NCBI GenBank assembly: GCA_018697035.1
Contig: JABHSE010000001.1
Coordinates: forward strand, 29,653 to 93,652
Direction: 5' to 3'
DNA length: 64,000 nt
Origin: an archaeon
GTDB lineage: Archaea > Nanobdellota > Nanobdellia > Pacearchaeales > GW2011-AR1
The notes under the pieces are model-generated. The model was not told where the DNA came from. It did not search any database and worked only from the letters and a program-made list of their open reading frames with translations. The translations under genes and the position numbers were made by a program. This document shows positions 5,933 to 43,356 of the stretch, one piece after another. Position 1 is the first letter of the stretch. Each line of letters starts with the position of its first letter.

Positions 5933-5968
5933 TTCTATTATATAGTGTAGTTCATATTTTTTTATAAA

Positions 5969-6766: not shown

Positions 6767-6885
6767 AGATGTGTTTTCATTCTTGAAAAGTACTGGTACG
6801 TTTTGATTGTTAACTATTGTGAACGAAAGTGTGTTCTTTATGACAACAATCTTTAAATAGACGAAATATTAGTTTTGTCCCATAG

Positions 6886-6901
6886 CTACAATTTATTGTA
6901 G
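6886..6901 (+). promoter_or_regulatory. perfect 16-bp palindrome CTACAATTTATTGTAG upstream of nrdR-nrdD (candidate NrdR box)
   Basis: Lies about 25-35 nt downstream of a TATA-like ctttaaatag (6851-6860) and 56 nt before the nrdR ATG. The centre CAATnTATTG resembles the bacterial NrdR-box acaCwAtATaTwGtgt. Confidence 0.45.
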
Positions 6902-6956
6902 TTAAAATGAGTGTGATATACCATATATTGTATTCATTGCAAAATAACAAATCAAG

Positions 6957-7397
6957 ATGCTATGTCCATATTGCAATTCAAGTGAAACGAAGGTTACTGA
7001 TAAGCGGGACTCTGGAAGTGAGTCTCGGAGGCGAAGGGAGTGTTTGAAATGTGGGAAGCGGTTTACGACGTATGAGCGGGTTGAGTTGGATATGTATGTT
7101 ATTAAGAAGGATGGGAAGCGAGAGCGGTTTTCGCGGGACAAGTTGTTTAAGGGGATTGAGAACAATTTGCAGAAGCGGCCTTTTAGTAGTGAGCAGATAA
7201 ATTCGATAGTTGATGATATTGAGGCTAGGGTTTATCGGTTTGCGAAAGATAAGGATATTACGAGTAGCAGGGTTGGGGAGTTTGTGTTGGCGAAGTTGAA
7301 GAAAGTGGATAAGGTGGCGTACATTCGGTTTGCGGCGGTCTATCGGGACTTTGCGAATATTGACGAATTCAGTTACGAGCTGAAAAAAATAAAATAA
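6957..7397 (+). CDS. nrdR: transcriptional repressor NrdR (Zn-ribbon + ATP-cone)
   Basis: N-terminus MLCPYCNSSETKVTDKRDSGSESRRRRECLKCGKRFTTYE is the NrdR zinc-ribbon signature. An ATP-cone follows. Confidence 0.8.
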   Translation: MLCPYCNSSETKVTDKRDSGSESRRRRECLKCGKRFTTYERVELDMYVIKKDGKRERFSRDKLFKGIENNLQKRPFSSEQINSIVDDIEARVYRFAKDKDITSSRVGEFVLAKLKKVDKVAYIRFAAVYRDFANIDEFSYELKKIK

Positions 7398-7404
7398 AAA
7401 TAAA

Positions 7405-9588
7405 ATGGTAAAAAAAATAAGAAAGAGAGATGGGAGCGTTGTGTTCTTTCAGCCTGATAAAATTGAGAATGCGATTTGGAAGTCGGTTCGAGCTGTTGGT
7501 GGGAAGGATAAAGATAGGGCTAGTGAGGTAGCTGGGCAGGTTGTTGAAAAGTTAGAGCGGATTTATGGGGAGCATGGGGTTGCTGATGTTGAGGATGTTC
7601 AGGATTTGATTGAGAAGGTTTTAATTGAGGAAGGGCACGCGAAGGTTTCGAAGGCGTTTATTTTGTATCGGAAGAGTCGAGAGGAACTTCGGGATGTTAA
7701 GGGTTTGTTTGATACGATCGAGGCTGTTGAGGATTATATTGGGTTGAATGATTGGATGGTTAAAGAGAATTCTAATATGGGTTATTCGCTGCAAGGGTTG
7801 AATAATTATATTGCAACTAAGATTGTTTCGAATTATTGGATGAGGCGGATTTATCCCGAGGCTATCCGAAAAGTTCACGAGGCTGGAGATATTCATGTTC
7901 ATGATTTGGGGACGCTTGGGGCTTATTGTGTTGGTTGGGATTTGAAGGATTTATTGACGGTTGGGTTTAAGGGTGTGAAGGGTAAAGTTGAAAGTAAGCC
8001 TGCTAAACACTTGAGGACGGCGCTCGGACAGATGGTTAATTTCTTTTATACTTTGCAGGGTGAATCGGCTGGTGCTCAGGCATTTAGCAATTTTGATACA
8101 CTTCTTGCTCCGTTTATTCGTTATGATAAATTGGACTATAAGCAGGTTAAACAGTCGATGCAGGAATTTGTTTTTAATATGGCTGTGCCGACGAGGGTTG
8201 GTTTTCAGACGCCGTTTACGAATATCACTATGGATTTGGAGGTGCCGAATTACATGAAGGATGAGCATGTTGTCATCGGTGGAGAGTTGAAGATGGAGAA
8301 ATATGGAGATTTTCAGAAAGAGATGGATATTATTAATAAGGCGTTTGCGGAGTGTATGATTGAGGGAGATGCTAGTGGACAAGTTTTTACCTTTCCGATT
8401 CCGACTTATAACATTACGAAGGATTTTGATTTTGATAAGCCGGAGCATGAGTTGATATGGGAAATGACGGCGAAGTATGGGATTCCCTATTTTTCGAATT
8501 TTGTTAATTCTGATATGAAGCCTGAGGATTCTCGGAGTATGTGTTGTCGTTTGAGGATTGATAATACTGAATTGAAGAAGAGAGGTGGTGGTTTGTTTGG
8601 GGCGAATCCTTTGACTGGTTCGATTGGTGTTGTGACTATGAATATGGCGAGACTTGGTTATGTGTCGACGAGTGAGGATGATTTTATGGGAAGGCTGGAT
8701 CGTTTGATGGAGTTGGCAAAAGAGAGTCTTGAGATTAAGAGGAAGGCGATTGAGCGGTTTACTGAAATGGGGCTTTATCCTTATTCTAAGTTTTATCTTC
8801 GGGTTGTTCATGAAAGGTTTGGGGAGTATTGGAAAAATCATTTTGGGACGATTGGTTTGCTTGGTATGAATGAGTCTGTGAAGAATTTTATGCCTGGCGA
8901 AGATATTACTACGGAGAAGGGTAGGGCTTTTGCCTTGAAGGTTTTGGATTTTATGAGGGATAGATTGACAGGATATCAGGAGGAGACGGGGAGTATTTAT
9001 AATTTGGAGGCGACTCCAGGAGAAGGGACGACCTATAGATTTGCTCGGACGGATAAGAAGAGATTTGGCAGAATTATTGTTGCGAATGAGGAGGCTGTGA
9101 AGCTTGGGGCTAAGCCTTATTATACAAATTCGTCGCAGTTGCCTGTCGACTTTACGGACGATGTTTTTGAGGCGTTAGATTTGCAGGATGAAATCCAATG
9201 TAAGTATACTGGTGGGACGGTGTTTCATACTTTTGTTGGAGAGAGGATGACTACGGATGCTGTTAAGAATATGGTTAAGAAGATTGCGTTTGGTTATCAC
9301 TTGCCTTACTTTACGATTTCTCCTACGTTTTCGATTTGTCCTAATCATGGGTATTTGAGTGGGGAGCATGAGTATTGTCCGAAATGTGATTTGGAGATTG
9401 CGGAAGGGAATGTTGCTATTGCCGAGGATGTTGTTTTGGAGGAGGAGGCTGAGAAGAAGATTGTTGAGGTTGAAGATGCTGATGTTTTAATGAAGCCGAT
9501 TGCTATTGAGGTAAAGAAGGTTAGTGCGTTTGGCGAGGGTGAAGAATCTAAATTAAATAAGAGAGGTGATATTGATGGCGAGGACTAA
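7405..9588 (+). CDS. nrdD: anaerobic ribonucleoside-triphosphate reductase (class III RNR), NrdD
   Basis: N-terminal ATP-cone (VKKIRKRDGSVV). Core CCRLRIDNTELKKRGGGLFGANPLTGS. C-terminal Cys cluster with a Gly in ICPNHGYLSGEHEYCPKCD. 727 aa. Confidence 0.8.
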   Translation: MVKKIRKRDGSVVFFQPDKIENAIWKSVRAVGGKDKDRASEVAGQVVEKLERIYGEHGVADVEDVQDLIEKVLIEEGHAKVSKAFILYRKSREELRDVKGLFDTIEAVEDYIGLNDWMVKENSNMGYSLQGLNNYIATKIVSNYWMRRIYPEAIRKVHEAGDIHVHDLGTLGAYCVGWDLKDLLTVGFKGVKGKVESKPAKHLRTALGQMVNFFYTLQGESAGAQAFSNFDTLLAPFIRYDKLDYKQVKQSMQEFVFNMAVPTRVGFQTPFTNITMDLEVPNYMKDEHVVIGGELKMEKYGDFQKEMDIINKAFAECMIEGDASGQVFTFPIPTYNITKDFDFDKPEHELIWEMTAKYGIPYFSNFVNSDMKPEDSRSMCCRLRIDNTELKKRGGGLFGANPLTGSIGVVTMNMARLGYVSTSEDDFMGRLDRLMELAKESLEIKRKAIERFTEMGLYPYSKFYLRVVHERFGEYWKNHFGTIGLLGMNESVKNFMPGEDITTEKGRAFALKVLDFMRDRLTGYQEETGSIYNLEATPGEGTTYRFARTDKKRFGRIIVANEEAVKLGAKPYYTNSSQLPVDFTDDVFEALDLQDEIQCKYTGGTVFHTFVGERMTTDAVKNMVKKIAFGYHLPYFTISPTFSICPNHGYLSGEHEYCPKCDLEIAEGNVAIAEDVVLEEEAEKKIVEVEDADVLMKPIAIEVKKVSAFGEGEESKLNKRGDIDGED

Positions 9589-9707
9589 GTGTGAAGTTTG
9601 GAGTAGGGTTGTGGGTTATTTGAGACCGACTGTTCGATGGAATGATGGGAAATTAGCTGAATTTGGTGATAGGACTACTTTCGGTTCCTGCTAATTTTCC
9701 TGCTGAT

Positions 9708-9800
9708 TTCTAGCGGTTTATACTTCGTTGGACGAACGCTCACGTACTCTTGTACGCTTCGCAACCGTCCGCCTCGTCTAAACCTGCTGTAAATCAGCAT
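9708..9800 (+). repeat. structured intergenic element, family A copy 1
   Basis: tctagcggtttatacttcgtt-ggacg-aacgctca-cgtac-tctt-gtacg-cttcgcaac-cgtcc-gcctcgtctaaacctgctgtaaatcagca. Confidence 0.75.
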
Positions 9801-9860
9801 GGTTTTTATTATATGGTTTAGTATAATAATTATTATAAGTGGCTGTTGTGTTTTTTTATT

Positions 9861-10340
9861 ATGGAGGATGATTTGCGTTTTCAGAAGAGTAATAGTAATT
9901 TTATTGAGAGGTTTTGGGGAGGGTATGTTTCTATTGAGCGAGGTGGCGGATATCAAGTTAAGAGGTTGACTTTGAAGCCTGGTAAGCGGATTAGTTTGCA
10001 GAAGCATTTACATCGGTCGGAGCATTGGGTTGTTGTGTCTGGGGTTGCTAAGATTGTGCTTGGTGGTGAGAGTATTGTTTTGGGAAAAAATGAATCTACT
10101 TATGTTGGTGTTGGGGTTGTTCATCGGTTGGAGAATATGGGGAAGATTGATCTTGAGATTATTGAGGTTCAGATGGGTGAGTATTTGGGTGAGGATGATA
10201 TTGAGAGGTTCGAAGATGATTTTGGACGGGTTGATGGAGAGGACTTGTCTACGGATTATATGGGTGGCCATGGATTTGAGAGTGAGGTTGATTTGGTTAG
10301 TGAGGAGTTTTGTATTGGGGAAGGGTGTGGGGAAGAATGA
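9861..10340 (+). CDS. cupin-domain protein (phosphomannose-isomerase-type cupin)
   Basis: GYQVKRLTLKPGKRISLQKHLHRSEHWVVVSG is a cupin_2 core. An acidic C-terminal tail follows. Confidence 0.5.
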   Translation: MEDDLRFQKSNSNFIERFWGGYVSIERGGGYQVKRLTLKPGKRISLQKHLHRSEHWVVVSGVAKIVLGGESIVLGKNESTYVGVGVVHRLENMGKIDLEIIEVQMGEYLGEDDIERFEDDFGRVDGEDLSTDYMGGHGFESEVDLVSEEFCIGEGCGEE

Positions 10341-11044
10341 AGATTGCGGGATTGCAAAAAGTTTCGACGATTGATTATCCTGGGGAAATTTGTTGTGTGG
10401 TTTTTTTATTTGGTTGTAATTTTAGATGTGGGTTTTGTTATAACCCAGAATTGGTTGTTGGAGATGGTAAGCAGGAATTAGGGTTTTCTCAGGATGAGGT
10501 TTTGGAATTTTTATCTAGACGGATTGGGAAGTTAGATGGGGTTTGTATTTCGGGAGGCGAGCCTTTGATGAGTTTGGATTTTGATTTTGTGAAGAAGGTT
10601 AAGGAGATGGGATTTAAGATTAAAATTGACACTAATGGGAGTTTTCCTGATAAGCTTAAAGATTTGATTGATGAGGGGTTTGTTGATTATATTGCGATGG
10701 ATGTTAAGGGTGCGCGGGATGATTATTTTGAAATTGTGAATGCTGATGTTTGTTTGGAAAAGATTGAAAGGTCTATTAAGATTGTGAATGATTTCGGGGG
10801 TGAGTTCCGGACGACGATTGTTCCAGGGTTACATGATGTGGATAGTGTTTTGGAAATGGGCGAGTGGATGGGGCGTGTTTGTGGGAGGCCACCTGGGAAG
10901 ATTTTTTTGCAGGGGTTTAAGGTTTCTCATGATGGAATGATTGATTCGGCGTTTTTGAAGAAGGTTGATGTTTTGGAGGGGGAGTTGTTGAGGATGAAGG
11001 TGGAGGTTGAGGGGTTGTTTGGAGAAGTTGGGGTTCGGGTGTAG
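10337..11044 (+). CDS. nrdG: anaerobic RNR activating enzyme NrdG (radical SAM)
   Basis: CNFRCGFCYN matches the radical-SAM CxxxCxxC. Its start overlaps the cupin stop (ATGA). Confidence 0.75.
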   Translation: MKIAGLQKVSTIDYPGEICCVVFLFGCNFRCGFCYNPELVVGDGKQELGFSQDEVLEFLSRRIGKLDGVCISGGEPLMSLDFDFVKKVKEMGFKIKIDTNGSFPDKLKDLIDEGFVDYIAMDVKGARDDYFEIVNADVCLEKIERSIKIVNDFGGEFRTTIVPGLHDVDSVLEMGEWMGRVCGRPPGKIFLQGFKVSHDGMIDSAFLKKVDVLEGELLRMKVEVEGLFGEVGVRV

Positions 11045-11045
11045 A

Positions 11046-12278
11046 TTAATTTATTTTTTGTGCTAGTCTTTCTATTGCGTTTATGTAAGCGGCTATCCTT
11101 GTCGATGTTTGATGTTTTGTTTTTTTATTTAAGATTTCTTGTGTTGCATTGAACATTTTTTCTTTTAGTTTTTTGTCAACCTCTTCTGCTGTCCAGGATT
11201 CTTTGTTTATATTTTGATACCATTCGTAATAAGATACGGTTACACCGCCTGCGTTTGCTAGGATGTCTGGGAGGATAAGGATGTTTTTGGATTCTAGGAT
11301 TTTGTCGGCTTCAGGAGTTGTTGGTCCGTTTGCTAATTCTAGGATTATTTTTGCTTTTATTTGTTCTGCGTTTTTTTCTGTGATTTGATTTGCTAGGGCT
11401 GCTGGGACGAGGATGTCGCATTCTAATTCTAATAATTCTTGATTTGTTATTGTAGTTGTGTTAGGAATATCTTGCAGGTTGCCGTTTTGTTTTTTGTGTT
11501 CTAATACTGATTTGATATCTAGTCCTTCTTGGTTATATATTGCGTTTTTAGAATCTGAGATTGCGATGATTTTTGAATTGTCTTCTGATATTAGTTTTGC
11601 GAAGTTGCTTCCTGCGTTGCCGATTCCTTGTATTATTATGGTGGCGTTTTTTAGGGTTGAGATTATCTGGGTTTGTTCGATTGCTTTTTGTAAGACGAAT
11701 TGTCCGCCTCTTGCTGTTGCTGTGTCTCGTCCTAGTGAGCCTCCGTTCTCGATGGATTTTCCTGTGACTACTGCTCTCGCTTCTTCTATTGGTGTGGAAG
11801 TTTGTTTAGAGTATTCGTCTACTATGATGTCCATGATTTTGGCATTGGTGTATACGTCTGGTGCTGGGATGTCTTGTTGTGGTCCGATTACTGGTGTTAT
11901 TTTTTTTATGAAGGCGCGTGTTATGTTTTCTAGTTCTTTGTCTGATAATTCTTTTGGGTTACAGATTACACCACCTTTTCCGCCGCCTAGTGGGAGTCCT
12001 ACTGTCGCTGTTTTTATTGTCATCCAGGTTGCTAGTGCTGAGACTTCGTTTAGGTCGACTTGTGGATGGTATCGGATTCCGCCTTTGTATGGGCCGAGTA
12101 GAGAATTGTGTTGGATTCTGTATCCTGTGAATATCTTTGTTGAATCGTCGTCCATTTTGACTGGGAAGTTGACTTTTGTTTCTCGCTCGGTGTTTAGGAT
12201 TATGTTTAATTTTTCTTGTGAGAGGTTTAATTTTTCTGCGGCTTTTTTTATTATTGTTTTTGCGTTTTCTAATTCCAT
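11046..12278 (-). CDS. gdhA: glutamate dehydrogenase
   Basis: KGGIRYHPQVDLNEVSALATWMTIKTATVGLPLGGGKGG is the Glu/Leu/Phe/Val dehydrogenase signature. 410 aa. Confidence 0.85.
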   Translation of the reverse strand: MELENAKTIIKKAAEKLNLSQEKLNIILNTERETKVNFPVKMDDDSTKIFTGYRIQHNSLLGPYKGGIRYHPQVDLNEVSALATWMTIKTATVGLPLGGGKGGVICNPKELSDKELENITRAFIKKITPVIGPQQDIPAPDVYTNAKIMDIIVDEYSKQTSTPIEEARAVVTGKSIENGGSLGRDTATARGGQFVLQKAIEQTQIISTLKNATIIIQGIGNAGSNFAKLISEDNSKIIAISDSKNAIYNQEGLDIKSVLEHKKQNGNLQDIPNTTTITNQELLELECDILVPAALANQITEKNAEQIKAKIILELANGPTTPEADKILESKNILILPDILANAGGVTVSYYEWYQNINKESWTAEEVDKKLKEKMFNATQEILNKKTKHQTSTRIAAYINAIERLAQKIN

Positions 12279-12469
12279 TTACTTTTTAGGTTGTTTTTGT
12301 TTTTAGTTGTTTGTTATCAGTGTTGACATGCTTACTAATGTAAGTGGCTCTTGGTCCTTCGTTTTATTCCATAAGAAATCACGGCACCTTCGGCACACAT
12401 GATTTCCTATGGGCACTTATAGGATTTTATATAATAATTTTTATATAGTGATTTTTAGTTGAATTTTGT

Positions 12470-13147
12470 ATGGCACCAATAAAACAAAGCGTACCCTTGA
12501 AGGGCAAGAATATTTTGAAGGGGAGGTATCGGCATTTTAAGGGAGGTGAATATGAAGTTTTGTCTGTTGCTTCTAATTGTGATAATCCCGAGCAGGAGCT
12601 TGTTGTTTATCGGGCGCTTTATGGGGAGGGTAAGATTTGGGTTCGGTTGTTGAGTGAGTTTATTGGGTTTAAGGATATTGGTGGGAAGAAGGTTGAGAGA
12701 TTTGAGAAGATTGGTGACGAGGGGAAAGGGGTTTGTGTTAGGGTTAAGAGATTGAGAGAGGATGCGGTTTTGCCGAAGTATGCTCGTGAAGGGGATGCTG
12801 CGATGGATGTTGTTGCTGTTTCTAAGAGAGTTTGTGATAATTATATAGAATATGGGACTGGTTTGGCTTTTGAGGTTCCTGAAGGTCATGTGATGTTGAT
12901 GTTTCCTCGGAGCAGTAATACCAAGAGTGATTTGATTTTGGGGAACTCAGTTGGGGTTTTGGATTCTGGGTATCGTGGGGAGTTGATGATTAGGTTTAAT
13001 GTTATTGGGGACAAGGGGCATTATGAGGTTGGAGATAGGATTGTGCAGATTATGATTTTGCCTTGTCCTGAGGTTGAGTTTGTGGAGAGTGAGGAGTTGT
13101 CGGAGAGTTCAAGGGGAGAGGGGCGGTTTGGGTCGACTGGGAAGTAG
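12470..13147 (+). CDS. dut: dUTP diphosphatase with an N-terminal DUF1653-like domain
   Basis: C-terminal dUTPase motifs: LPKYAREGDAAMD, DSGYRGEL, and a GEGRFGSTG tail. N-terminal GRYRHFKGGEYEVL...ELVVYRALYGEGKIWVR resembles DUF1653. TATA box at about 12440. Confidence 0.7.
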   Translation: MAPIKQSVPLKGKNILKGRYRHFKGGEYEVLSVASNCDNPEQELVVYRALYGEGKIWVRLLSEFIGFKDIGGKKVERFEKIGDEGKGVCVRVKRLREDAVLPKYAREGDAAMDVVAVSKRVCDNYIEYGTGLAFEVPEGHVMLMFPRSSNTKSDLILGNSVGVLDSGYRGELMIRFNVIGDKGHYEVGDRIVQIMILPCPEVEFVESEELSESSRGEGRFGSTGK

Positions 13148-13195
13148 AGGATTTAGTATAGTAGTCTTTATATATTTTTGAGAGTATGTTAGATT

Positions 13196-14230
13196 ATGAT
13201 TATTGGGATTACTGGGACGTTTGGTGCTGGGAAGGGAACGGTTGTTGAGTTTTTGAAAGAGAAGGGTTTTGAGCATTTTTCGGTTAGGGAGTTTTTGATT
13301 GAGGAGATTTCGAAGAGGGGTTTGGAGGTTAGTCAAGGGAATATGGCTTCTGTTGCTAATGACTTGAGGGCTAAGAATGGGGCGAGTTATATTGTTGAGG
13401 AGTTGTATCGGAAGGCTGCGCTTTCAAGGGGGGATGTTGTTATTGAGAGTTTGAGGTGTCCTGGTGAGGTTGAGGTACTTAAGGGGAAAGATGGTTTTGT
13501 TTTGTGGGCGGTGGATGCTGATATTGAGAATAGGTATACTCGGACGATTGAAAGGAGTGATAGTGTTGGGGATGAGAAGGGTTTTTCGTTTCAGCAGTTT
13601 ATGCAAAGGGAACAGGAGCAAATGGGGAATAAGGATCCGACGATGCAGAACTTAGGGGTTTGTATTGAGATGGCGGATGTTGTTTTCCGGAACGATTGGA
13701 CGATTGCGGAATTGAAGGGGAAAGTGGAGAAGGTGCTTGAGAAGAAGATTGATGGGAATGTGAGACCTAGTTGGGATGAGTATTTTATGAAGTTGGCGGC
13801 TTTGGTTGGAGAGAGGTCAACTTGTTTAAGACATAATATTGGTGCTATTATTGTTAAAGATAAGAGGGTTATTACTACTGGTTATAATGGTTCGGCTAAG
13901 GGGATGCCTAATTGTGTTGAGGTTGGGTGCTTGAAGGATGAGTTGGGGATTAAGACTGGAACTGGACATGAGACTTGTCGCGCTGTTCATGCTGAGATGA
14001 ATGCAATTATTCAAGGAGCTTCACATGGTATTTCCGTTGAAGGGACTACTATATATTGTACTCATACTCCGTGCACTCTTTGTGCTAGGATGATTGTGAA
14101 TGCGGGGATAAAGAGGGTAGTTAGTTATCGTGATTATTCTGATGAGGGAGCTAGAAAGTTTTTGGAAAAAGCGAATGTTGTTTTGGATAAGATTGGTAGA
14201 CCTTCTGATAAAATAAGGTTTGTGGATTAA
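13196..14230 (+). CDS. P-loop (d)NMP-kinase-like domain fused to dCMP deaminase
   Basis: N-terminal Walker A IGITGTFGAGKGT. C-terminal deaminase Zn motifs HAEMNAI and PCTLCA. Confidence 0.65.
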   Translation: MIIGITGTFGAGKGTVVEFLKEKGFEHFSVREFLIEEISKRGLEVSQGNMASVANDLRAKNGASYIVEELYRKAALSRGDVVIESLRCPGEVEVLKGKDGFVLWAVDADIENRYTRTIERSDSVGDEKGFSFQQFMQREQEQMGNKDPTMQNLGVCIEMADVVFRNDWTIAELKGKVEKVLEKKIDGNVRPSWDEYFMKLAALVGERSTCLRHNIGAIIVKDKRVITTGYNGSAKGMPNCVEVGCLKDELGIKTGTGHETCRAVHAEMNAIIQGASHGISVEGTTIYCTHTPCTLCARMIVNAGIKRVVSYRDYSDEGARKFLEKANVVLDKIGRPSDKIRFVD

Positions 14231-37750: not shown

Positions 37751-40615
37751 TTAGATTTTTAGACTTATGATTTTTGACATATTCTCTTGCATGGATACTC
37801 CATAAAGATTCGAAGCCTCGGATATTAAGGTGTCGTTGTGTGTGATTATGATGTATTGTCCGGCTGTCATGTATTTTTTTATTAGGGCTGCTAGGAGCTC
37901 GGAATTGTGTTTGTCTAAGGCTGCGTCGATTTCGTCGAATACGTAGAAGCAGTATGGTTTGTATTCTTGGATTGCGAAGATTAGGGATAGTGCGACTAGG
38001 GTTTTTTCTCCTCCTGAAAGTGAAGTTATGTCGAAGTATCGTCCACGGGAGACTTTTACTAATATATTTAGTCCTGCGGAGAAGGGATCTTTTTTGTTTT
38101 CTAGTTCTAAGACGACTTCACCTTTTCTTGATAGTTGTATGAAATTTCTTGTGAAGTATTCATTCACGGCGTTAAGGGTAGAGAGGAAGGATTTCTTTTT
38201 CTTTTTGTCTATCTCCTGTATTATTTTTTCTATTTGTTCTTTCTCTTCGTGGATGGTTTTGACTTTTCCTTCTATGAGTGTTACCTGTTCTTCAATTTTG
38301 TCGAAGACCTCTAGGGCCCGCAAGTTTACATTTCCCAGTCTTGACATTCTAAATTGTGATTTCTGTAATCGTTCTTTTATTTGTTCTATTGGGAGAGTTA
38401 GTATTTCTTCGGAGATGAATTCAGAGAGCTCGGAATTTAGGGATTCGATTTGTGCTCCAAGTTGTGCTACGAGAATTTTATTATGATTTATTTTGTCTTC
38501 TAAGTTTTTGACAGTGTGTTGTAATCCGATGATATCGGTTTCTACTACTTTTTGTTGGTCTTGTAGAGAGTTTCTGAAGTCGAAGAATTTTTGAGATTTC
38601 TCGTAGAGCTTTTGTTCTTCAATTTCTTTTTTTACTGCTTCCTTATCTTTTTCGGTTATTCGTAATTCTATTTTTCTTAGTTCTATTTGAGATTCTTCCA
38701 TGTCTCTTTGTGTTGCCTTCAGTTCGATAGTTAGTCTTCCGGTTTCTCTTTTTTTTAATTGGATTTCTGTATCTACGTCCATATCAGCAAAGGATATCTC
38801 CTGGAGAGTTAGTCTTGTTTCGTCATATTTCTCCTCAATGTCTTTGAGGGATTCGTAGTTTGTTCTCTTAGAATGTATTTTCTCGTTTATGGATTTCAGC
38901 TCTTCTTTCGTTTCTATTTGTTTTCCTGTTATTATTTTTATTTGTGCTTTTTTCTCGTCAGAGTTTTTTAGTTTGATTCTATCTATTCTTAGTTCTTCTA
39001 GTTTTGTTTGCAGAAGTGATAACCTTTCTTTTATGTGGCTTATTCTTGCGATGTCTTCGGTTTTTGTTTTAAGGTTTGTTTTCATTTCCTTGGATACGGA
39101 TTCTATTTTTGTGTCTGCGTCTGTTGATATTTTGTGTTTGTGATTTTCTCCTACATCTTGTTTGCAGATTGGACATGATTTCAAAGATGTTACGTCGTAT
39201 TTTAGTTTATTTTCTCGTTTGACATCCATTTCTAAAATGGCGTTTCTTTTTTCTTTTTCTAGTATTTGTCTTTCTAGTGTTGATATTTGATCTATTGTTT
39301 TTTCTATCTTAGAGCTTGTTTCTGATTTTAGCGATTTGTTTGATTCTGGTGTTTTTTCGTATTTGATTTCGTGAAAGAGGGAAGTGATTGTTTGTTCTAT
39401 TAGTTGGACTTCTTTTTGAGATTCTATTAGGAATTTTTCTTTTTGAGATTTCTGATTTTCTAGAGTTGAGAGATCGGATTTCAAGATGTAGAATTTTCTT
39501 CTTTGTTGTTCTAGTATGTCGAATTTTTCTTGGAGAATTTTTTGTTGCTCTTGTTGCTTTTTTATTTCAGGAGATGCTGTCCTTATTTCTGACATCTCTT
39601 GATTTAATTTTTCTATTTTTCCTTTCAATTTTTCTATTTTCTCTTTTCCTTGAATAAGTCTGTTGTCGAAATTTTCTCTCCGGACATCTAGACCTGCTAG
39701 GTCGGCTTTTAGGTCAGATATCTCTCCATGAAGGACTTCTTGTTCGTTGGATGTTGAGGATTGTATTTGTTTGTTTACTGCCAGAATTTTACCTTGGAAT
39801 TCTTCGGCTTTGAAGTTTTTTTCCTGTATGATTTTTTTTATTTTTTTTATTTCGAGATTAATTTCTTCTATTTTTTTATTTATTTCAGAGACTTCTTTTT
39901 CTTTATTGTTCTTAGTTTTAACTAGAAGGGTTTTTTTGCATCGTTTTATTGTAGTTTCTAATTTTTGATAAGAGATTGCTTCTTGCCTCTCTTTGTTTAG
40001 GTTTTTTAGGTAAGATGTTTTCTCTCTTAGTACTGCAGATATTTCCTTTAGCCTTTCTTCTGTTTTTTCTAATTCTCTAAGGGATTTGTGCTTTCTTGTT
40101 TCGTATATTGATATCCCTGCGACCTCTTCTATTATTTTTCGTCTTTCTTCGGCTGTTGCTTTTACTAAGGATTGGATTTCTCCTTGGAGGACTATGTTGA
40201 ATCCGTTTGGGTCTACGCCGGCTTGAGATAAGAGTTCTAGGATATCTTGACGGGTTTTTGTTTTGCCGTTGATTCTGTATATTGATTGTCCGGTTTTCCG
40301 TACGGTTCTTTTGATTGTGACTTCTTTTTCATCTATTGCGAAGGTTTTGTCTGTGTTGTCGAAGGTTAGTTCTACTGATGCTTCTTGTGAGCCTTTGTAT
40401 GTTTTGTTTCCGGAGAAGAGTAAGTTTGCTGCTTTTGCGGCTCTTATTGATTTAATTGAGAGTCTTCCGAGTACGAAGCAGAGAGCGTCAGTTATGTTTG
40501 ATTTTCCTGAGCCGTTTGGTCCGACTATTACGTTCATTGAGTTGTTTAGGGGTATTTCGGTTTTTCTTGCGAAGGATTTGAAACCGTGCATCGTCATCTT
40601 TTTTATGTGGGTCAT
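37751..40615 (-). CDS. SMC-family ABC ATPase (954 aa) with a mid-coiled-coil CxxC zinc-hook-like motif in place of a hinge
   Basis: N-terminal head GFKSF...VIVGPNGSGKSNITDALCFVLG and NGFNIVLQGEIQSLVKATAEERRKIIEEVAGIS (SMC-type). C-terminal LSGGEKTLVALSLIFAI, FYVFDEIDAALD, IIITHN. Mid-protein LKSCPICKQ. Confidence 0.8.
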   Translation of the reverse strand: MTHIKKMTMHGFKSFARKTEIPLNNSMNVIVGPNGSGKSNITDALCFVLGRLSIKSIRAAKAANLLFSGNKTYKGSQEASVELTFDNTDKTFAIDEKEVTIKRTVRKTGQSIYRINGKTKTRQDILELLSQAGVDPNGFNIVLQGEIQSLVKATAEERRKIIEEVAGISIYETRKHKSLRELEKTEERLKEISAVLREKTSYLKNLNKERQEAISYQKLETTIKRCKKTLLVKTKNNKEKEVSEINKKIEEINLEIKKIKKIIQEKNFKAEEFQGKILAVNKQIQSSTSNEQEVLHGEISDLKADLAGLDVRRENFDNRLIQGKEKIEKLKGKIEKLNQEMSEIRTASPEIKKQQEQQKILQEKFDILEQQRRKFYILKSDLSTLENQKSQKEKFLIESQKEVQLIEQTITSLFHEIKYEKTPESNKSLKSETSSKIEKTIDQISTLERQILEKEKRNAILEMDVKRENKLKYDVTSLKSCPICKQDVGENHKHKISTDADTKIESVSKEMKTNLKTKTEDIARISHIKERLSLLQTKLEELRIDRIKLKNSDEKKAQIKIITGKQIETKEELKSINEKIHSKRTNYESLKDIEEKYDETRLTLQEISFADMDVDTEIQLKKRETGRLTIELKATQRDMEESQIELRKIELRITEKDKEAVKKEIEEQKLYEKSQKFFDFRNSLQDQQKVVETDIIGLQHTVKNLEDKINHNKILVAQLGAQIESLNSELSEFISEEILTLPIEQIKERLQKSQFRMSRLGNVNLRALEVFDKIEEQVTLIEGKVKTIHEEKEQIEKIIQEIDKKKKKSFLSTLNAVNEYFTRNFIQLSRKGEVVLELENKKDPFSAGLNILVKVSRGRYFDITSLSGGEKTLVALSLIFAIQEYKPYCFYVFDEIDAALDKHNSELLAALIKKYMTAGQYIIITHNDTLISEASNLYGVSMQENMSKIISLKI

Positions 40616-40649
40616 TTGTTTTTTAAGGGAGTGGGGTTTTTAAGAATTG

Positions 40650-41528
40650 TTAGGACAATTTTAGGAGTTTTGCCAAGTCTTTGCTTAGGATATTTTCTCC
40701 TTTACTTAATAATTCTCTTTGGGTTGCTGGACCATGATAGTCTGAACCGTAGCTGATTGGAAGATTATTTTCCTTGGCGAATGTTTCGAATTTATGGTAG
40801 GGATATTTTTCTTTGAAAAGTGGCTGTACTTCTAAGAAATCTATGCCTTGCTCTACTAGAATTTCTAACTCTTTCATTCTTTTGATGTCCTTAGGTGGGT
40901 GAGCGATTCCAATTATTCCTCCTGCTTCATGTACTATATCTATTGCTTCTTTCGGGTCTACTCCTATTCTGGGCTTGAGGTCTCCCGCTATTCCCTTTTT
41001 ACCTAGGTAATATTTGAATAATCTTTCTGGTGATAATTCTGAGTGCTTTTCTTGAATGTATTCTCTACATTCTTTGTCTTTGTAAAATATTTCTTTTATG
41101 TTTCCTTTACCTATTCTTGAGTCTGGATATTCGGATCTTATTTTTTCCATTGTTATCGGGAGGCCTGATTTTTGTAGAATATCTACCCTTGTTTTACATC
41201 GGGTGTATTGTATGTCTCTTGAATGTTTTAGGAATTTTTGGAGTTTTGAGTTTTCGGGATTGAAATTTAATGCTAGTAGGTGGTAGTTTTGGGTTGTGAT
41301 CTCTGCTGCTGGTAAAAGTTTTACTCCGTATTGTTCTGCGGTTTTATAGGCTTCGAAATATCCCCGTGTATGATCGTGGTCTGCTATTGCCATGACGTCT
41401 ATTCCTTTCATTGTTGATATTTTTATTATTTGTGTTGGGTCTAATTGTCCATCCGAGTATTTCGTGTGCATATGGAGGTCTATGTACTTTGTTTTCATGT
41501 TAATCGAAATGGAATACCCGTCCTTCAT
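40650..41528 (-). CDS. PHP-domain metal-dependent phosphoesterase (COG0613 TrpH/YciV-like)
   Basis: DLHMHTKYSDG, MAIADHDHTRGY and GIAHPP motifs. Lies immediately upstream of the SMC-like gene in the same transcription direction. Confidence 0.7.
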   Translation of the reverse strand: MKDGYSISINMKTKYIDLHMHTKYSDGQLDPTQIIKISTMKGIDVMAIADHDHTRGYFEAYKTAEQYGVKLLPAAEITTQNYHLLALNFNPENSKLQKFLKHSRDIQYTRCKTRVDILQKSGLPITMEKIRSEYPDSRIGKGNIKEIFYKDKECREYIQEKHSELSPERLFKYYLGKKGIAGDLKPRIGVDPKEAIDIVHEAGGIIGIAHPPKDIKRMKELEILVEQGIDFLEVQPLFKEKYPYHKFETFAKENNLPISYGSDYHGPATQRELLSKGENILSKDLAKLLKLS

Positions 41529-41751
41529 TTAGTTGATCTTCTAAATCTCGATTGTATGAGTAAACTTCCATTACCTTTTGCATGTTTACTCCATTTATTT
41601 TGCTGTATTCTTCAGTTGCATTTTGGTTTTTTGAGACATATACTGGATAGTCTTCGTAGTCGAATGTGTCACAAACTACGATCATGTGGGTGATATTTTT
41701 TTCTTTGCCGTTTTCGAGCCAATTGCTTATGTCTTTTCTTGTTGTTCCCAT
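41500..41751 (-). CDS. hypothetical small protein, first gene of the PHP/SMC-like unit
   Basis: ORF that overlaps the PHP gene start by about 29 nt on the same strand. Confidence 0.3.
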   Translation of the reverse strand: MGTTRKDISNWLENGKEKNITHMIVVCDTFDYEDYPVYVSKNQNATEEYSKINGVNMQKVMEVYSYNRDLEDQLNEGRVFHFD

Positions 41752-41811
41752 AATTATACTTAACAATAGAAACGTTTATATATCTCCTATATGATTTATA
41801 TAAATAATATA

Positions 41812-42705
41812 ATGAAGCGAAAAGTGATAAAACAGGCGAACCAGGCGTATACTTTGACGTTGCCGATCGACTGGGTTAGGGCTAATAAGATTTCTGAAAA
41901 ATGTGAGATTGACGTTGTTGTGGATGGTCGGAGTTTGTTGGTTTCGAATGAAGGCGGTGTTGTTAAGAAAAAGGCGAAGTTGGATGTTTCGGGGTTTGAG
42001 TATAGGAACGTTTATCGCCACATTAACGCGCTTTATGCTAAGGGAGTGGATGAGATTGAGATTAGTTCGGATAAGGAAATTTCGTCTTTGATAATTAAGT
42101 TGTTGAATTCTTTGATTGGATATGTTTTAGTTTCTCAAGAGGATGGGAAATATGTAATAAAGGATATTAGCGGTGGTGGTTATGGTGATTTGGATGAAGT
42201 TTTCAAGAGGGCGTTCCAGTCAGTTATTTTATTTTATGATTCTGCTATTAGTGACGTTTTCGGTGCGGGTATTGAGAGTGAGAGTAGTTTGAGGATGCGG
42301 GATTTGGAGGTGAATAAGCTTTGTTTTTATTTGCAGAGGGCTATTAATAAGATGTCTTATGGGGATGCTGTTCGGGGACGGAGTCTATTTAGTTATTCAC
42401 TTGAGTTGGAAAAAATTGGGGACGATATTTTGAGATTTTGGAGAGCGAATCTTGGGAAAAAAATTAAGAAAACTAAAGAGCTTAGAGAGATTGTTGATTT
42501 GTCAAGAAAGTGTCTTCACTGGACTTTTGATTCCTATTATAGATTTGATTCAAAGGAATTAGAGAAAGTTTTTGATTTGAGAGAGAAAGTTAGAAAAAAG
42601 GTTGCGGTGATTAAAGGGCAGGATGTTTTTGCTCGGCAGGCATTGAGGATTGCGGAAGGTGCTGTTGATTTGAATCATTTGGTTTTAATGATGAAACTAG
42701 AATAG
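41812..42705 (+). CDS. putative regulator with AbrB/SpoVT-like N-terminal domain and PhoU-like helical domain
   Basis: The N-terminus (YTLTLPIDWVRANKISEKCEIDVVVDGRSLLV) resembles a swapped-hairpin AbrB/MazE domain. The rest is helical and repeat-like. Assigned by inference. Confidence 0.35.
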   Translation: MKRKVIKQANQAYTLTLPIDWVRANKISEKCEIDVVVDGRSLLVSNEGGVVKKKAKLDVSGFEYRNVYRHINALYAKGVDEIEISSDKEISSLIIKLLNSLIGYVLVSQEDGKYVIKDISGGGYGDLDEVFKRAFQSVILFYDSAISDVFGAGIESESSLRMRDLEVNKLCFYLQRAINKMSYGDAVRGRSLFSYSLELEKIGDDILRFWRANLGKKIKKTKELREIVDLSRKCLHWTFDSYYRFDSKELEKVFDLREKVRKKVAVIKGQDVFARQALRIAEGAVDLNHLVLMMKLE

Positions 42706-43356
42706 TTTTTTCTGTGACGAATTTTTTGCCTTGAATAATTTTTTTACTGTATTCCAGGAGAACCTTATAATAGGAGAGTATTTTTCGTTGTCGAAATTTT
42801 CAGTTATAAATTTTTTTGTTTTTGGATCTGCTGGATATCCTGATCCGAAATCTATTTTATATTTTTGTTTTAGTTTGTATACCTCGTCTTCTCTAGATTC
42901 TTTTGCTAGTATTGATGCTGCTCCGACAATTGGGTGGTTTGCGTCTGCTTTGTGTTCGCATTTTAGGATTATTTGTTTTGGATTTTTTAGAAGCTGCTGA
43001 ACGTCGTTTGACCAGGATTCTATGTTTACTGAGGGGCAATCTACTACTGCTGTGGTTTTTTCTTTTAGGTTTTTTGTTAGATGGTTTATGATTTCGGCTG
43101 TTTTGATTGCTTCTAGGTAGTTTAGGTTTGTCGAGTCGTCGATTTGTTTTGGGGAGGATTTGACTATGTGGTGGGTGAACTTAGGTCTTAGGGATTCTGC
43201 TATTTTTCTTCTTTGGAGTGGAGATAAGAGTTTTGAGTCTTTTGCATTTAGGGCTTTTATTTTTGGTTCGTCTTTTTCGTCTATTATTACTCCTGCTAGG
43301 GTCATCGGGCCTAAGACTGGGCCTCTGCCTGCGTCGTCGATTCCTAGGACTTTCAT
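42697..43356 (-). CDS. rnhB: ribonuclease HII
   Basis: MKVLGIDDAGRGPVLGPM, then DSK and the C-terminal ILAKESRDE. Confidence 0.85.
   Translation of the reverse strand: MKVLGIDDAGRGPVLGPMTLAGVIIDEKDEPKIKALNAKDSKLLSPLQRRKIAESLRPKFTHHIVKSSPKQIDDSTNLNYLEAIKTAEIINHLTKNLKEKTTAVVDCPSVNIESWSNDVQQLLKNPKQIILKCEHKADANHPIVGAASILAKESREDEVYKLKQKYKIDFGSGYPADPKTKKFITENFDNEKYSPIIRFSWNTVKKLFKAKNSSQKKLF

What the first reader, a model, noticed from the sequence alone, without database searches (positions are those of the whole stretch)
37751..41751. SMC-headed protein with a Rad50-like CxxC hook instead of a hinge, co-transcribed with a PHP phosphoesterase
The 954-aa protein has unmistakable SMC head motifs: GPNGSGKSNITDALCFVLG, NIVLQGEIQSLV..ERRKIIEEVAGIS, LSGGEKTLVALSLIFAI, FYVFDEIDAALD and ITHN. 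It is about 200 aa shorter than canonical archaeal SMC. The middle of its coiled coil carries LKSCPICKQ, a CPxC zinc-hook-like motif typical of Rad50/SbcC, where SMC has a globular hinge. No ScpA/ScpB kleisin genes are adjacent.

The gene immediately upstream on the same strand encodes a PHP-family metal-dependent phosphoesterase (HxH...DHDH, COG0613-like), with a small ORF before it. The order nuclease-then-ATPase mirrors mre11-rad50 and sbcD-sbcC, but with a PHP domain in place of the calcineurin-like Mre11 nuclease. This could be an uncharacterised DNA-end processing or defence module.
Basis: partly seen in the sequence, partly recalled or inferred. Interest (0 to 1): 0.7.

Follow-up and report, generated by a model that had tools for sequence, protein, structure and literature searches.

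The report
SMC with zinc hook, no hinge
This archaeon's chromosome-organising SMC protein has its usual "hinge" joint replaced by the small zinc-hook clasp normally found only in the DNA-repair protein Rad50, a swap so far known only from engineered proteins, while the neighbouring PHP phosphoesterase gene is an unrelated insertion.

Summary
Window 37751-40615(-) encodes a 954-aa protein with intact SMC ATPase motifs, no hinge domain, and CPIC at its exact midpoint.

The head is true SMC: 341 bits to Pyrococcus Smc heads against about 50 bits to Rad50 heads. A profile of the central 94 residues finds Rad50 zinc hooks as its best PDB matches (1L8D, E=9e-9). AlphaFold gives helix, 13-residue turn, helix, and no globular domain.

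The architecture defines a clade labelled mostly Pacearchaeota, 38-100% identical, with an invariant C-P-x-C. In a head-only tree the clade has 95% bootstrap support and sits next to hinge-bearing SMCs labelled Woesearchaeota. Both types lie downstream of rnhB, so this is the positional orthologue of smc with the hinge swapped for a hook. A roughly 800-aa subgroup at the same locus has neither hinge nor hook.

The proposed PHP-SMC "Mre11-Rad50-like" module is not supported:
- PHP lies upstream of smc in only 2 of 22 related genomes.
- smc has its own TATA box at -29.
- PHP's constant partner is a divergent AbrB-like gene, and the pair also occurs away from smc.
- PHP belongs to the TrpH/RNase AM class.

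Whether a ScpA kleisin is present could not be tested. I found no paper describing a natural SMC with a hook.

The parts
37751..40615 (-). smc gene, 954 aa: SMC head, full-length arms, and a zinc hook in place of the hinge
   Evidence: ORF. SMC_N 188 bits with no SMC_hinge. TIGR02169 SMC 524 bits in two stretches, against Rad50 models at about 85 bits or less and ASRP at 90 bits. Pyrococcus Smc head 5xei 341 bits.
40109..40615 (-). N-terminal head lobe (aa 1-169), with Walker A (40499-40522), R-loop region (40433-40450), Q-loop (40175-40192) and the SMC-specific ERRKIIEEVAGIS (40109-40147)
   Evidence: Motif positions. Residues invariant in alignment A1. 45% identity over aa 1-322 to the hinge-type SMC P0150.
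39188..40108 (-). N-terminal coiled-coil arm (aa 170-476)
   Evidence: AF2 helices 170-288, 291-342, 352-416 and 423-476, pLDDT about 75-90. Collinear with the N-arm of hinge-type SMCs, e.g. query aa 1-474 against aa 1-468 of P0150.
39149..39187 (-). Hook turn (aa 477-489). CPIC is at 39164-39175. The extended motif LKSCPICKQDVGENHKHKIS is at 39125-39184.
   Evidence: 13-residue turn between two long helices in both AF2 models. Hook profile against PDB: 1l8d E=8.8e-9, 6zff 6e-8, 5gox 3.6e-5. Foldseek rank 1 is 1l8d_B. Pfam Rad50_zn_hook 17.6 bits, below threshold.
38216..39148 (-). C-terminal coiled-coil arm (aa 490 to about 800)
   Evidence: AF2 helices 490-588, 593-608, 616-731, 743-760 and 766-828. 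Paired low-confidence breaks at aa 343-351 and 609-615 look elbow-like.
37754..38215 (-). C-terminal head lobe, with signature LSGGEKT (38000-38020), Walker B/D-loop (37913-37948) and H-loop ITHN (37835-37846)
   Evidence: 42% identity over aa 637-952 to aa 824-1138 of P0150.
40637..40644 (-). TATA-like box CTTAAAAA, starting 29 nt upstream of the smc ATG: the likely smc promoter, implying a leaderless or short-leader mRNA
   Evidence: The same box ([CT]TTAAAAA, TTTATATA or TTTAAATA) starts at -29/-30 in 20 of 26 loci, whatever gene lies upstream. The promoter role is inferred.
40650..41528 (-). PHP phosphoesterase (TrpH/YciV/RNase AM-like), probable start at 41498. Adjacent to smc but judged not part of the SMC system.
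   Evidence: PHP Pfam hit. NCBIfam RNase RNM and 3',5'-bisphosphate phosphatase at about 108 bits, below cut-off. PDB 3e0f, 9etk, 7ug9 (5'-3' exoribonuclease) and 2yb1. Synteny.
41791..42705 (+). 304-aa gene with a weak AbrB/MazE-like N-terminus, divergent from PHP. It is the constant partner of PHP.
   Evidence: Weak Pfam MazE_antitoxin hit. No NCBIfam hit. Paired with PHP in L008, L021, L044-L048 and the P0334 place.
42697..43356 (-). rnhB (RNase HII), the conserved same-strand upstream neighbour of smc across hook-type, hinge-type and short forms
   Evidence: TIGR00729 170 bits. tblastn synteny. Pfam contexts.

Best explanation
The 954-aa protein is this archaeon's orthologue of the chromosomal SMC ATPase (condensin-type Smc). 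In it the globular hinge dimerisation domain, about 190 aa, has been replaced by a Rad50-type zinc hook, while the head and both arms of about 305 aa each are kept.

Shown here: the head is SMC and not Rad50; the hinge is absent; the apex is a short turn carrying an invariant C-P-x-C whose flanks match Rad50 hooks in sequence profile; the gene sits in the same rnhB-smc position as hinge-bearing smc genes; and the architecture defines one well-supported clade.

Inferred: two protomers join at the apex by tetrahedral coordination of one Zn2+ by their four cysteines, as in Rad50. This gives the same V- or rod-shaped dimer that a hinge would give. The ATPase heads then work as in Smc complexes, organising the chromosome by ATP-driven DNA entrapment or loop extrusion, probably with a kleisin encoded elsewhere. 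The shared extended motif (CPxC-x3-[IL]-T-x-E-H here, CPVCGRELTDEH in P. furiosus Rad50) suggests the hook module was captured from an archaeal Rad50 and did not arise independently.

The upstream PHP gene belongs to a separate two-gene cassette (AbrB-like plus PHP) that has landed in a variable rnhB-smc spacer in some lineages.
For: Head identity: PDB phmmer gives Smc heads at 341-166 bits against Rad50 heads at 52 bits or less. NCBIfam gives SMC_prok_A 524 bits, against Rad50 models at 85 or less and ASRP at 90.

No hinge: SMC_hinge is absent here but scores 110-115 bits in the nearest 1157-1166-aa relatives. BLASTP is collinear at both ends with a 186-aa length difference.

Hook: the 94-aa profile has Rad50 hooks as its four best PDB hits, with 1l8d at E=8.8e-9. 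AF2 gives helix, 13-aa turn, helix at pLDDT 87 (full-length model). The three best Foldseek hits are Rad50 hooks, with TM 0.82 and 2.6 A to 1l8d_B. C481, P482 and C484 are invariant. 93 of 93 relatives of 950-1070 aa carry a central CxxC.

Orthology: the head-only neighbour-joining clade has 95/100 bootstrap support and sits beside hinge-type SMCs that, where a source names them, are labelled Woesearchaeota. rnhB is upstream in about 20 hook-type loci and in hinge-type loci L036, L037 and L040. The region is core housekeeping synteny: adk, AP endonuclease, primase, EF-1a.

Precedent: an engineered B. subtilis Smc carrying the P. furiosus Rad50 hook supports normal growth (PMC5344682). The reverse swap works in yeast Rad50 (PMC6969161).
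Against: Zinc binding and hook-mediated dimerisation are inferred, not shown; only monomers could be modelled. The Foldseek E-values (0.015) are not significant on their own, because helical hairpins carry little information. The kleisin ScpA, ScpB, a second hinge-bearing SMC and Rad50/Mre11 could not be looked for genome-wide, so 'sole SMC, works with a kleisin' is unverified. About 800-aa relatives within the same clade and at the same locus have no CxxC at all, so apex zinc clasping is not indispensable in this lineage. The trees are neighbour-joining on 335 columns, not maximum likelihood. AF2 confidence for the head was poor (pLDDT 34-65), so head assignment rests on sequence.
Confidence: 0.78

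Rival explanations
1. PHP phosphoesterase and the SMC-like ATPase form a co-transcribed nuclease-ATPase machine analogous to Mre11-Rad50 or SbcCD, for DNA-end processing or anti-phage defence.
For: The genes are 34 nt apart on the same strand in the window and directly adjacent in L021, L046 and L047. A hook is the Rad50 hallmark. PHP domains can be nucleases; PDB 7ug9 is an exoribonuclease. TrlF-family ATPases fuse a PHP domain to an SMC-like ATPase (weak hits).
Against: PHP is upstream of smc in only 2 of the 22 related genome loci that retain upstream flank (L008 and L021). In L008, L044 and L045 it is separated from smc by an opposite-strand gene. PHP homologues at about 50% identity keep their AbrB-like partner but lie far from any smc. 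PHP relatives are sparse, about 48 at 39% identity or more, whereas all 120 listed SMC hits are at 63% or more. smc keeps its own TATA box at -29 even when PHP is upstream. PHP has no PADLOC hit, and the ATPase gets only generic SMC-superfamily hits: mad3 164 bits and LmuB 76 bits, against 524 for SMC. The locus is core and syntenic, not an island.
Confidence: 0.04
2. The protein is the organism's divergent Rad50/SbcC, a DNA double-strand-break repair ATPase, not an SMC.
For: It has a central CPxC hook homologous to Rad50 hooks, no hinge, and a length typical of archaeal Rad50 (about 880-900 aa models).
Against: Rad50 equivalog models score 59-85 bits against cut-offs of 700-1087, while the SMC model scores 524. 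PDB Rad50 heads score 52 bits or less against 341 for Smc. The heads nest among SMCs. It is the positional orthologue of hinge-type smc. No Mre11 (calcineurin-like) gene is adjacent in any locus.
Confidence: 0.03
3. It has an SMC-derived head, but its function has shifted. Having lost the hinge, and possibly the kleisin, it acts as a Rad50-like or ClsN-like DNA tether or compartment organiser and does not extrude loops as a condensin does.
For: The hinge, with its DNA-binding and proposed gate roles, is gone. Hook-bearing archaeal SMC-related proteins (ClsN/ASRP) organise chromosome compartments (PMC9389158). No ScpA or ScpB lies within 10 kb either side in any locus. The short hook-less derivatives suggest relaxed constraint on the apex. 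DPANN genomes are reduced (my own knowledge).
Against: Arm length and ATPase motifs are strictly conserved. The neck regions, where kleisins bind in Smc (B. subtilis Smc-ScpA structures, my own knowledge), are among the most conserved parts. smc and scpA are often unlinked in archaea, and scpB is often absent (PMC7055376). The engineered Smc(Zh) retains condensin function.
Confidence: 0.13
4. The CxxC is a structural or redox feature unrelated to dimerisation, or an intramolecular metal site, and the resemblance to Rad50 hooks is convergent.
For: Only monomer models were possible. The Pfam hook hit is below threshold (17.6 against 24.3 bits). A nearby conserved His (H492) could in principle take part in metal binding.
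Against: The profile-level match covers about 90 residues on both sides of the CPxC and finds archaeal and human Rad50 hooks ahead of all other PDB chains. The motif sits exactly at the coiled-coil reversal, and each chain has only two Cys there, which is the Rad50 geometry. Two clade members reach Pfam Rad50_zn_hook in precomputed annotation (P0500 and P0514).
Confidence: 0.05

Closest known systems
Prokaryotic Smc (Smc-ScpAB condensin; archaeal Smc such as Pyrococcus Smc, PDB 5xei/4i99/5xg2)
   Same: The head sequence is shared (341 bits; 42-45% identity to hinge-type SMCs labelled Woesearchaeota). All ATPase motifs, the SMC-specific EERRxxIEEVAGIS junction, arms of about 300 aa each, and the genomic position after rnhB are the same.
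   Different: There is no hinge domain; a 13-residue CPxC turn takes its place. Partnership with ScpA/ScpB is unknown. The protein falls below the TIGR02169 equivalog cut-off (524 against 729 bits) because the middle of the model is unmatched.
Engineered B. subtilis Smc(Zh) chimera (Buermann et al. 2017, PMC5344682)
   Same: The design is the same: SMC head and arms with a Rad50 zinc hook replacing the hinge. The chimera supported normal growth, provided the arm length was right.
   Different: That was a laboratory construct using the P. furiosus hook. This one is natural, is fixed across a whole archaeal clade, and has its own diverged hook consensus ([LI]-D-x-C-P-x-C-[KRQ]-x-x-[IM]-T-x-E-H).
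Rad50/SbcC zinc hook (PDB 1L8D, 6ZFF, 5GOX; Pfam PF04423)
   Same: It shares CPxC at the apex of an antiparallel coiled coil, the extended motif CPxC-x3-[IL]T-x-EH also seen in P. furiosus Rad50, a profile E-value of 8.8e-9, and the top structural matches.
   Different: The hook is attached to an SMC head, not a Rad50 head. There is no Mre11/SbcD partner gene.
Archaea-specific SMC-related proteins (ASRP: ClsN/coalescin, Sph1/2; PMC9389158)
   Same: These are archaeal coiled-coil ABC ATPases with a zinc-hook motif in place of a hinge.
   Different: The ASRP model scores only 90 bits against a cut-off of 300. ASRPs are shorter (about 590-aa model) and form a family separate from SMC, whereas this protein is SMC proper by head sequence, phylogeny and synteny.
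'Hinge-less' SMC of marine Actinobacteria (Sussfeld et al. 2025, PMC12153180)
   Same: It is an SMC-clade head and coiled coil lacking the hinge domain.
   Different: Those are bacterial and explicitly lack the CXXC motif. They resemble the roughly 800-aa hook-less subgroup seen here more than the window protein.

Membership tests
SMC (prokaryotic Smc, TIGR02169/TIGR02168) | ABC-type head with Walker A, Q-loop, signature LSGGxK, Walker B/D-loop and H-loop, and SMC-type head sequence | tested here: met
   Motifs located and invariant. 341 bits to the Pyrococcus Smc head. SMC_prok_A 524 bits.
SMC (prokaryotic Smc, TIGR02169/TIGR02168) | Central globular hinge dimerisation domain (Pfam PF06470) | tested here: not met
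   No SMC_hinge hit at E<=0.01. AF2 shows a 13-residue turn only. Hinge-type relatives score 110-115 bits. The whole-protein score is below the equivalog cut-off (524 against 729).
SMC (prokaryotic Smc, TIGR02169/TIGR02168) | Long intramolecular antiparallel coiled coil, about 300 or more aa per arm | tested here: met
   AF2 helices span aa 170-476 and 490 to about 828, with pLDDT 75-90 in the arms.
SMC (prokaryotic Smc, TIGR02169/TIGR02168) | Phylogenetic placement and orthology with bona fide smc | tested here: met
   In the head-only neighbour-joining tree the clade (95/100) sits beside hinge-type SMCs labelled Woesearchaeota. rnhB-smc synteny is shared with hinge-type loci. Maximum likelihood was not run.
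SMC (prokaryotic Smc, TIGR02169/TIGR02168) | Association with a kleisin (ScpA), with or without a kite (ScpB) | not testable with these tools
   No ScpA or ScpB Pfam family in the window or within 10 kb either side in other genomes. Non-adjacency is common in archaea (PMC7055376).
Rad50/SbcC | Zinc hook: CxxC at the coiled-coil apex | tested here: met
   Profile hit to 1l8d, 6zff and 5gox. Structural top hits. Zinc binding itself was not tested.
Rad50/SbcC | Rad50-type ATPase head | tested here: not met
   Rad50 equivalog models score 59-85 bits against cut-offs of 700-1087. PDB Rad50 heads score 52 bits or less.
Rad50/SbcC | Adjacent or partner Mre11/SbcD (calcineurin-like) nuclease | tested here: not met
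   No such gene next to smc in the window or in about 30 related loci. The PHP gene is present in a minority and is not linked to smc.
ASRP (ClsN/Sph; NF045487) | Match to the ASRP family model | tested here: not met
   90 bits against a cut-off of 300, far below the SMC score.
SMC-like defence ATPases (Lamassu LmuB, Wadjet JetC, MADS mad3, etc.) | Specific match to defence-system models and a defence-island context with effector genes | tested here: not met
   Only generic hits (mad3 164 bits, LmuB 76) and none for the neighbouring genes. The context is conserved housekeeping genes.
PHP phosphoesterase, TrpH/YciV (RNase AM) / pAp-phosphatase class (the neighbouring gene) | PHP fold with metal-binding His/Asp motifs and similarity to characterised members | tested here: inconclusive
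   PHP Pfam 42.5 bits. HxH, DHDH and GSDYH present. RNase RNM 109 and bisphosphate phosphatase 108 bits, both far below equivalog cut-offs of 375-400. PDB 3e0f, 9etk, 7ug9 and 2yb1 at E 1e-14 to 1e-20. The class is clear; the substrate is not.

The most novel reading that the evidence does not exclude
A whole archaeal clade has naturally replaced the SMC hinge with a zinc hook captured from Rad50, and a sublineage has then lost even the hook and about 150 aa of arm, all at the same rnhB-smc locus. If these are the cells' only SMCs, the hinge, long argued to be a DNA-binding site or entry gate, is dispensable for SMC function in nature. Alternatively, these tiny-genome archaea have re-purposed SMC, perhaps without a kleisin, into a Rad50-like or ClsN-like tether that may also cover Rad50's role.
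Probability: 0.3. Interest if true: 0.8.

Novelty: new variant of a known kind. Interest (0 to 1): 0.62.

Why it matters
Current reviews separate SMC proteins (hinge plus kleisin) from Rad50 proteins (zinc hook plus Mre11) (PMC10586767). The interchangeability of hinge and hook has been shown only with engineered chimeras (PMC5344682, PMC6969161).

A natural, clade-wide SMC with a hook, together with hook-less descendants, is evolution's version of that experiment. It gives a set of sequences with which to test what the hinge is for: dimerisation only, or DNA binding and gate opening as well. It also bears on how tightly arm length is constrained, and on how modules move between coiled-coil ABC ATPases.

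There is a practical point too. These genes are annotated as plain 'chromosome segregation protein SMC' and fall below the TIGR02169 cut-off. Surveys that seed on hinge domains would presumably miss them.

Tried and rejected
1. PHP-SMC module. I tested this by tblastn synteny over 24 genome loci, ORF maps of the spacers and neighbourhoods of PHP homologues. Rejected.

2. Defence system. The PADLOC scan gave only generic SMC-superfamily hits. Rejected.

3. Rad50 or ASRP identity of the ATPase. Rejected on model scores.

4. ScpA/ScpB/Mre11/Rad50 search. Pfam annotation of about 50 window ORFs and precomputed Pfam within 10 kb either side in seven other genomes found none.

5. I spent the metagenome scan on hinge-type SMC loci, hoping to find an adjacent scpA. 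No homologue of the window's genes other than rnhB turned up beside smc, and the neighbouring ORFs did not look like scpA, although I did not scan them against Pfam. The scan did reveal the shared rnhB synteny.

6. Foldseek of the hook fragment. Rad50 hooks rank first, but E is about 0.02, so it is only corroborative.

7. The full-length AF2 model had a poorly predicted head (pTM 0.30), so I did not use it for fold search.

8. Literature searches for a natural SMC with a zinc hook found only engineered swaps, ASRPs and CXXC-less hinge-less SMCs. Absence from this library does not prove the finding is new.

Full report
**Observation**

The ORF at 37751-40615(-) encodes 954 aa.
- Walker A, aa 32-39
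- Q-loop, aa 142-147
- the SMC-typical ERRKIIEEVAGIS, aa 157-169
- signature LSGGEKT, aa 866-872
- Walker B/D-loop, aa 890-901
- ITHN, aa 924-927
- CPIC, aa 481-484, at the exact midpoint

Pfam reports SMC_N end to end but no SMC_hinge. It gives a sub-threshold Rad50_zn_hook hit at aa 476-510 (17.6 bits, E=0.0035).

The PHP gene (40650-41528, probably starting at Met11 = 41498) lies 34 nt upstream on the same strand, and an 88-aa ORF precedes it. The description is therefore correct.

**What the ATPase is**

The head is SMC, not Rad50. phmmer against the PDB gives Pyrococcus Smc heads at 341-273 bits, eukaryotic Smc1-4 at 105-170 bits, and Rad50 heads at 52 bits or less. NCBIfam gives SMC_prok_A at 524 bits in two stretches. 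That is below the 729-bit cut-off only because the middle of the model is unmatched. Rad50 equivalogs score 59-85 bits, ASRP 90, and SbcC 46.

Against a hinge-bearing relative (P0150, 1140 aa), BLASTP aligns aa 1-322 at 45% identity and aa 637-952 at 42% identity, with a net length difference of 186 aa. The closest hinge-type relatives have a Pfam SMC_hinge of 110-115 bits (P0147 and P0149).

**Hook, not hinge**

A full-length AlphaFold2 model built from 56 homologues shows continuous helices at aa 170-476 and from aa 490 to about 828. They are joined by a 13-residue turn (aa 477-489), with no globular domain. A model of aa 405-560 alone gives the same helix-turn-helix at mean pLDDT 87.

A 94-residue profile of the apex from 26 divergent clade members, searched against all PDB sequences, returns these as its four best hits:
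- P. furiosus Rad50 zinc hook 1L8D, E=8.8e-9
- 6ZFF, E=6e-8
- human RAD50 hook 5GOX, E=3.6e-5
- full-length human RAD50 9Q9H, E=1e-3

The alignment pairs the clade consensus ..ldiCPlCkskitkeh.. with the Rad50 sequence ..kgKCPVCGRELTDEH...

Foldseek of the fragment model ranks 1l8d_B, 5gox_A and 1l8d_A first (TM 0.82 and 2.6 A for 1l8d_B). The E-values are about 0.02, which is weak on its own.

Conservation agrees. Across 21 members at 38-100% identity the arms average 0.30-0.45 column identity, but the bin at aa 481-495 rises to 0.60. C481, P482 and C484 are three of only seven positions that are at least 95% conserved between aa 230 and 740.

**Distribution and origin**

All 120 best database hits (63-100% identity, mostly 946-954 aa) lack a hinge annotation, and 119 of them have the central C-x-x-C. 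One hit, P0114, reads CFIC in place of CPxC.

In the library clustered at 50% identity, every full-length hit of about 950-1020 aa that aligns in a single stretch has CPxC at its centre. That is about 22 clusters, down to 38% identity. Hits of 1100-1200 aa have none. Where a source gives a name, hook-type proteins and their contigs are labelled Pacearchaeota, Woesearchaeota, Nanoarchaeota or simply 'archaeon'. The nearest hinge-type proteins are labelled Woesearchaeota.

A neighbour-joining tree of head domains only (335 columns) puts all hook-type proteins, plus four proteins of about 800 aa, in one clade with 95/100 bootstrap support, next to the hinge-type group labelled Woesearchaeota.

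Synteny shows orthology. In about 20 hook-type loci the same-strand upstream gene is rnhB, and downstream lie a pilin-like gene, an S-layer-like gene, DUF7557 and adk. Hinge-type loci L036, L037 and L040 also have rnhB upstream, directly adjacent in L040.

The simplest reading is a single replacement of the hinge by a Rad50-like hook in the ancestor of this clade, with arm length retained.

**A further step**

A family of 22 proteins of 751-809 aa has neither hinge nor CxxC. By contrast, 93 of 93 relatives of 950-1070 aa have the hook. At least one of the short forms again sits directly after rnhB (L050 and L051). The same locus therefore shows hinge, hook and 'nothing' states.

**The PHP neighbour**

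tblastn of the window's neighbouring genes against 24 related genome loci finds PHP upstream of smc only in L008 and L021. In L008 a 100-aa ORF and an opposite-strand 177-aa membrane gene intervene.

The rnhB-smc spacer varies between genomes. It can be empty, hold an opposite-strand membrane protein, hold Ppx-GppA, or hold the PHP cassette.

Seen from the PHP side, there are only about 48 relatives at 39% identity or more:
- Relatives at 60% identity or more sit in the rnhB-smc spacer (L044-L047).
- Relatives at about 50% identity keep their divergent AbrB/MazE-like partner of about 300 aa but lie beside gyrase, ribosomal-protein or PheRS genes, with no smc nearby.

In addition, an 8-nt TATA-like box starts exactly 29-30 nt upstream of the smc ATG in 20 of 26 loci, including the window (40637-40644) and L021, whatever gene lies upstream. 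This indicates that smc has its own promoter, probably giving a leaderless transcript.

PHP is of the TrpH/YciV (RNase AM) or 3',5'-bisphosphate phosphatase type and has no defence-system match. The Mre11-Rad50-like module is therefore not supported.

**Mechanism**

Shown here: SMC head; full-length arms; an apex turn with an invariant CPxC homologous to Rad50 hooks; orthologous position.

Inferred:
- Two chains clasp one Zn2+ with four cysteines, as in Rad50 (1L8D), forming the constitutive dimer interface that the hinge normally provides.
- ATP-driven head engagement then acts on DNA as in Smc complexes.

Feasibility is supported by the engineered B. subtilis Smc(Zh), which grew normally provided the arm length was right (PMC5344682), and by the reverse Rad50-MukB hinge swap (PMC6969161).

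Not known: whether a kleisin is present. None is nearby. However, smc and scpA are often unlinked in archaea, and scpB is often missing (PMC7055376).

**Comparison and novelty**

Known hook-bearing archaeal SMC-like proteins (ClsN, Sph, ASRP) are a different family: 90 bits against a cut-off of 300 (PMC9389158). The 'hinge-less' SMCs reported from marine Actinobacteria explicitly lack CXXC (PMC12153180). A 2023 review still defines SMC by the hinge and Rad50 by the hook. Six literature searches found no description of a natural SMC with a zinc hook.

I therefore class this as a new variant of a known kind: two known modules in a natural combination previously made only in the laboratory. Interest is moderate to high for SMC biology. 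The specific hypothesis that prompted the finding, a PHP-SMC machine, is not supported.

Noticed in passing
whole window 1-64000: The window shows extreme strand compositional asymmetry. G outnumbers C 17684 to 7366 on the + strand (GC skew 0.41). At four-fold degenerate sites, + strand genes use T 56% and G 26.5%, while - strand genes use A 58% and C 24%. The top strand is therefore G+T-rich whatever the gene orientation, so this is a mutational (replication-type) bias and not just gene-strand loading. Nearly all long genes are on the + strand.
   Followed up: partly
L050 3878-6277; L051 2580-4979; L049 957-3362; proteins P0141, P0431-P0458 etc.: There is a family of SMC orthologues of about 750-810 aa with neither a hinge nor a CxxC hook (22 of 22). 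They fall in the same clade as the hook-type proteins, and in L050/L051 they sit directly downstream of rnhB. What closes their apex is unknown.
   Followed up: partly
window 40650-42705; also L008, L021, L044-L048: A two-gene divergent cassette is conserved: an AbrB/MazE-like-N-terminus protein of about 300 aa paired with a TrpH-type PHP phosphoesterase. It was found together in every PHP context examined, including genomes where it is far from smc. The small ORFs flanking PHP (88 aa here) differ between genomes.
   Followed up: partly
window 40637-40644 (-) and the equivalent -29/-30 position in L001-L027: A TATA-like box at a fixed 29-30 nt from the smc start codon occurs in 20 of 26 loci, which suggests leaderless transcription. 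L007 and L024 carry it at -52 with short tandem-looking insertions. L002, L009, L020 and L023 lack it and have GC-rich palindromic sequences in its place.
   Followed up: partly
proteins P0104, P0127, P0129, P0446 (homologues, not the window): Several hook-type or short SMC orthologues carry an intein with a LAGLIDADG homing endonuclease inserted in the N-terminal head near Walker A. Their total length is 1335-1486 aa. Several hits of about 1700 aa, whose architecture I did not check, probably carry inteins too.
   Followed up: no
L026 (JABKBV010000001.1, 569 kb, assembly GCA_013166765.1): A contig deposited as 'Methanococcoides sp. SA1' carries an SMC 81% identical to the window's and the same synteny (rnhB-smc ... 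DUF7557-adk-AP endonuclease-primase-EF1a) as the hook-type (mostly Pacearchaeota-labelled) loci. The taxonomic label is probably wrong, or the assembly is mixed.
   Followed up: no
window 4874-14230: Deoxynucleotide-metabolism genes are clustered here: a divergent thymidylate-synthase-like gene, thymidylate kinase, NrdR, anaerobic NrdD, a radical-SAM activase, a DUF1653-dUTPase fusion, and a kinase-like (AAA_18) domain fused to a dCMP deaminase.
   Followed up: no
between rnhB and smc in L003, L007, L008, L020, L022, L024, L044, L045: The rnhB-smc spacer is an insertion hot spot. It often holds an opposite-strand membrane protein of 173-181 aa (MEKLHPGAKWLFR...), elsewhere Ppx-GppA (L027), and elsewhere the PHP cassette.
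   Followed up: no
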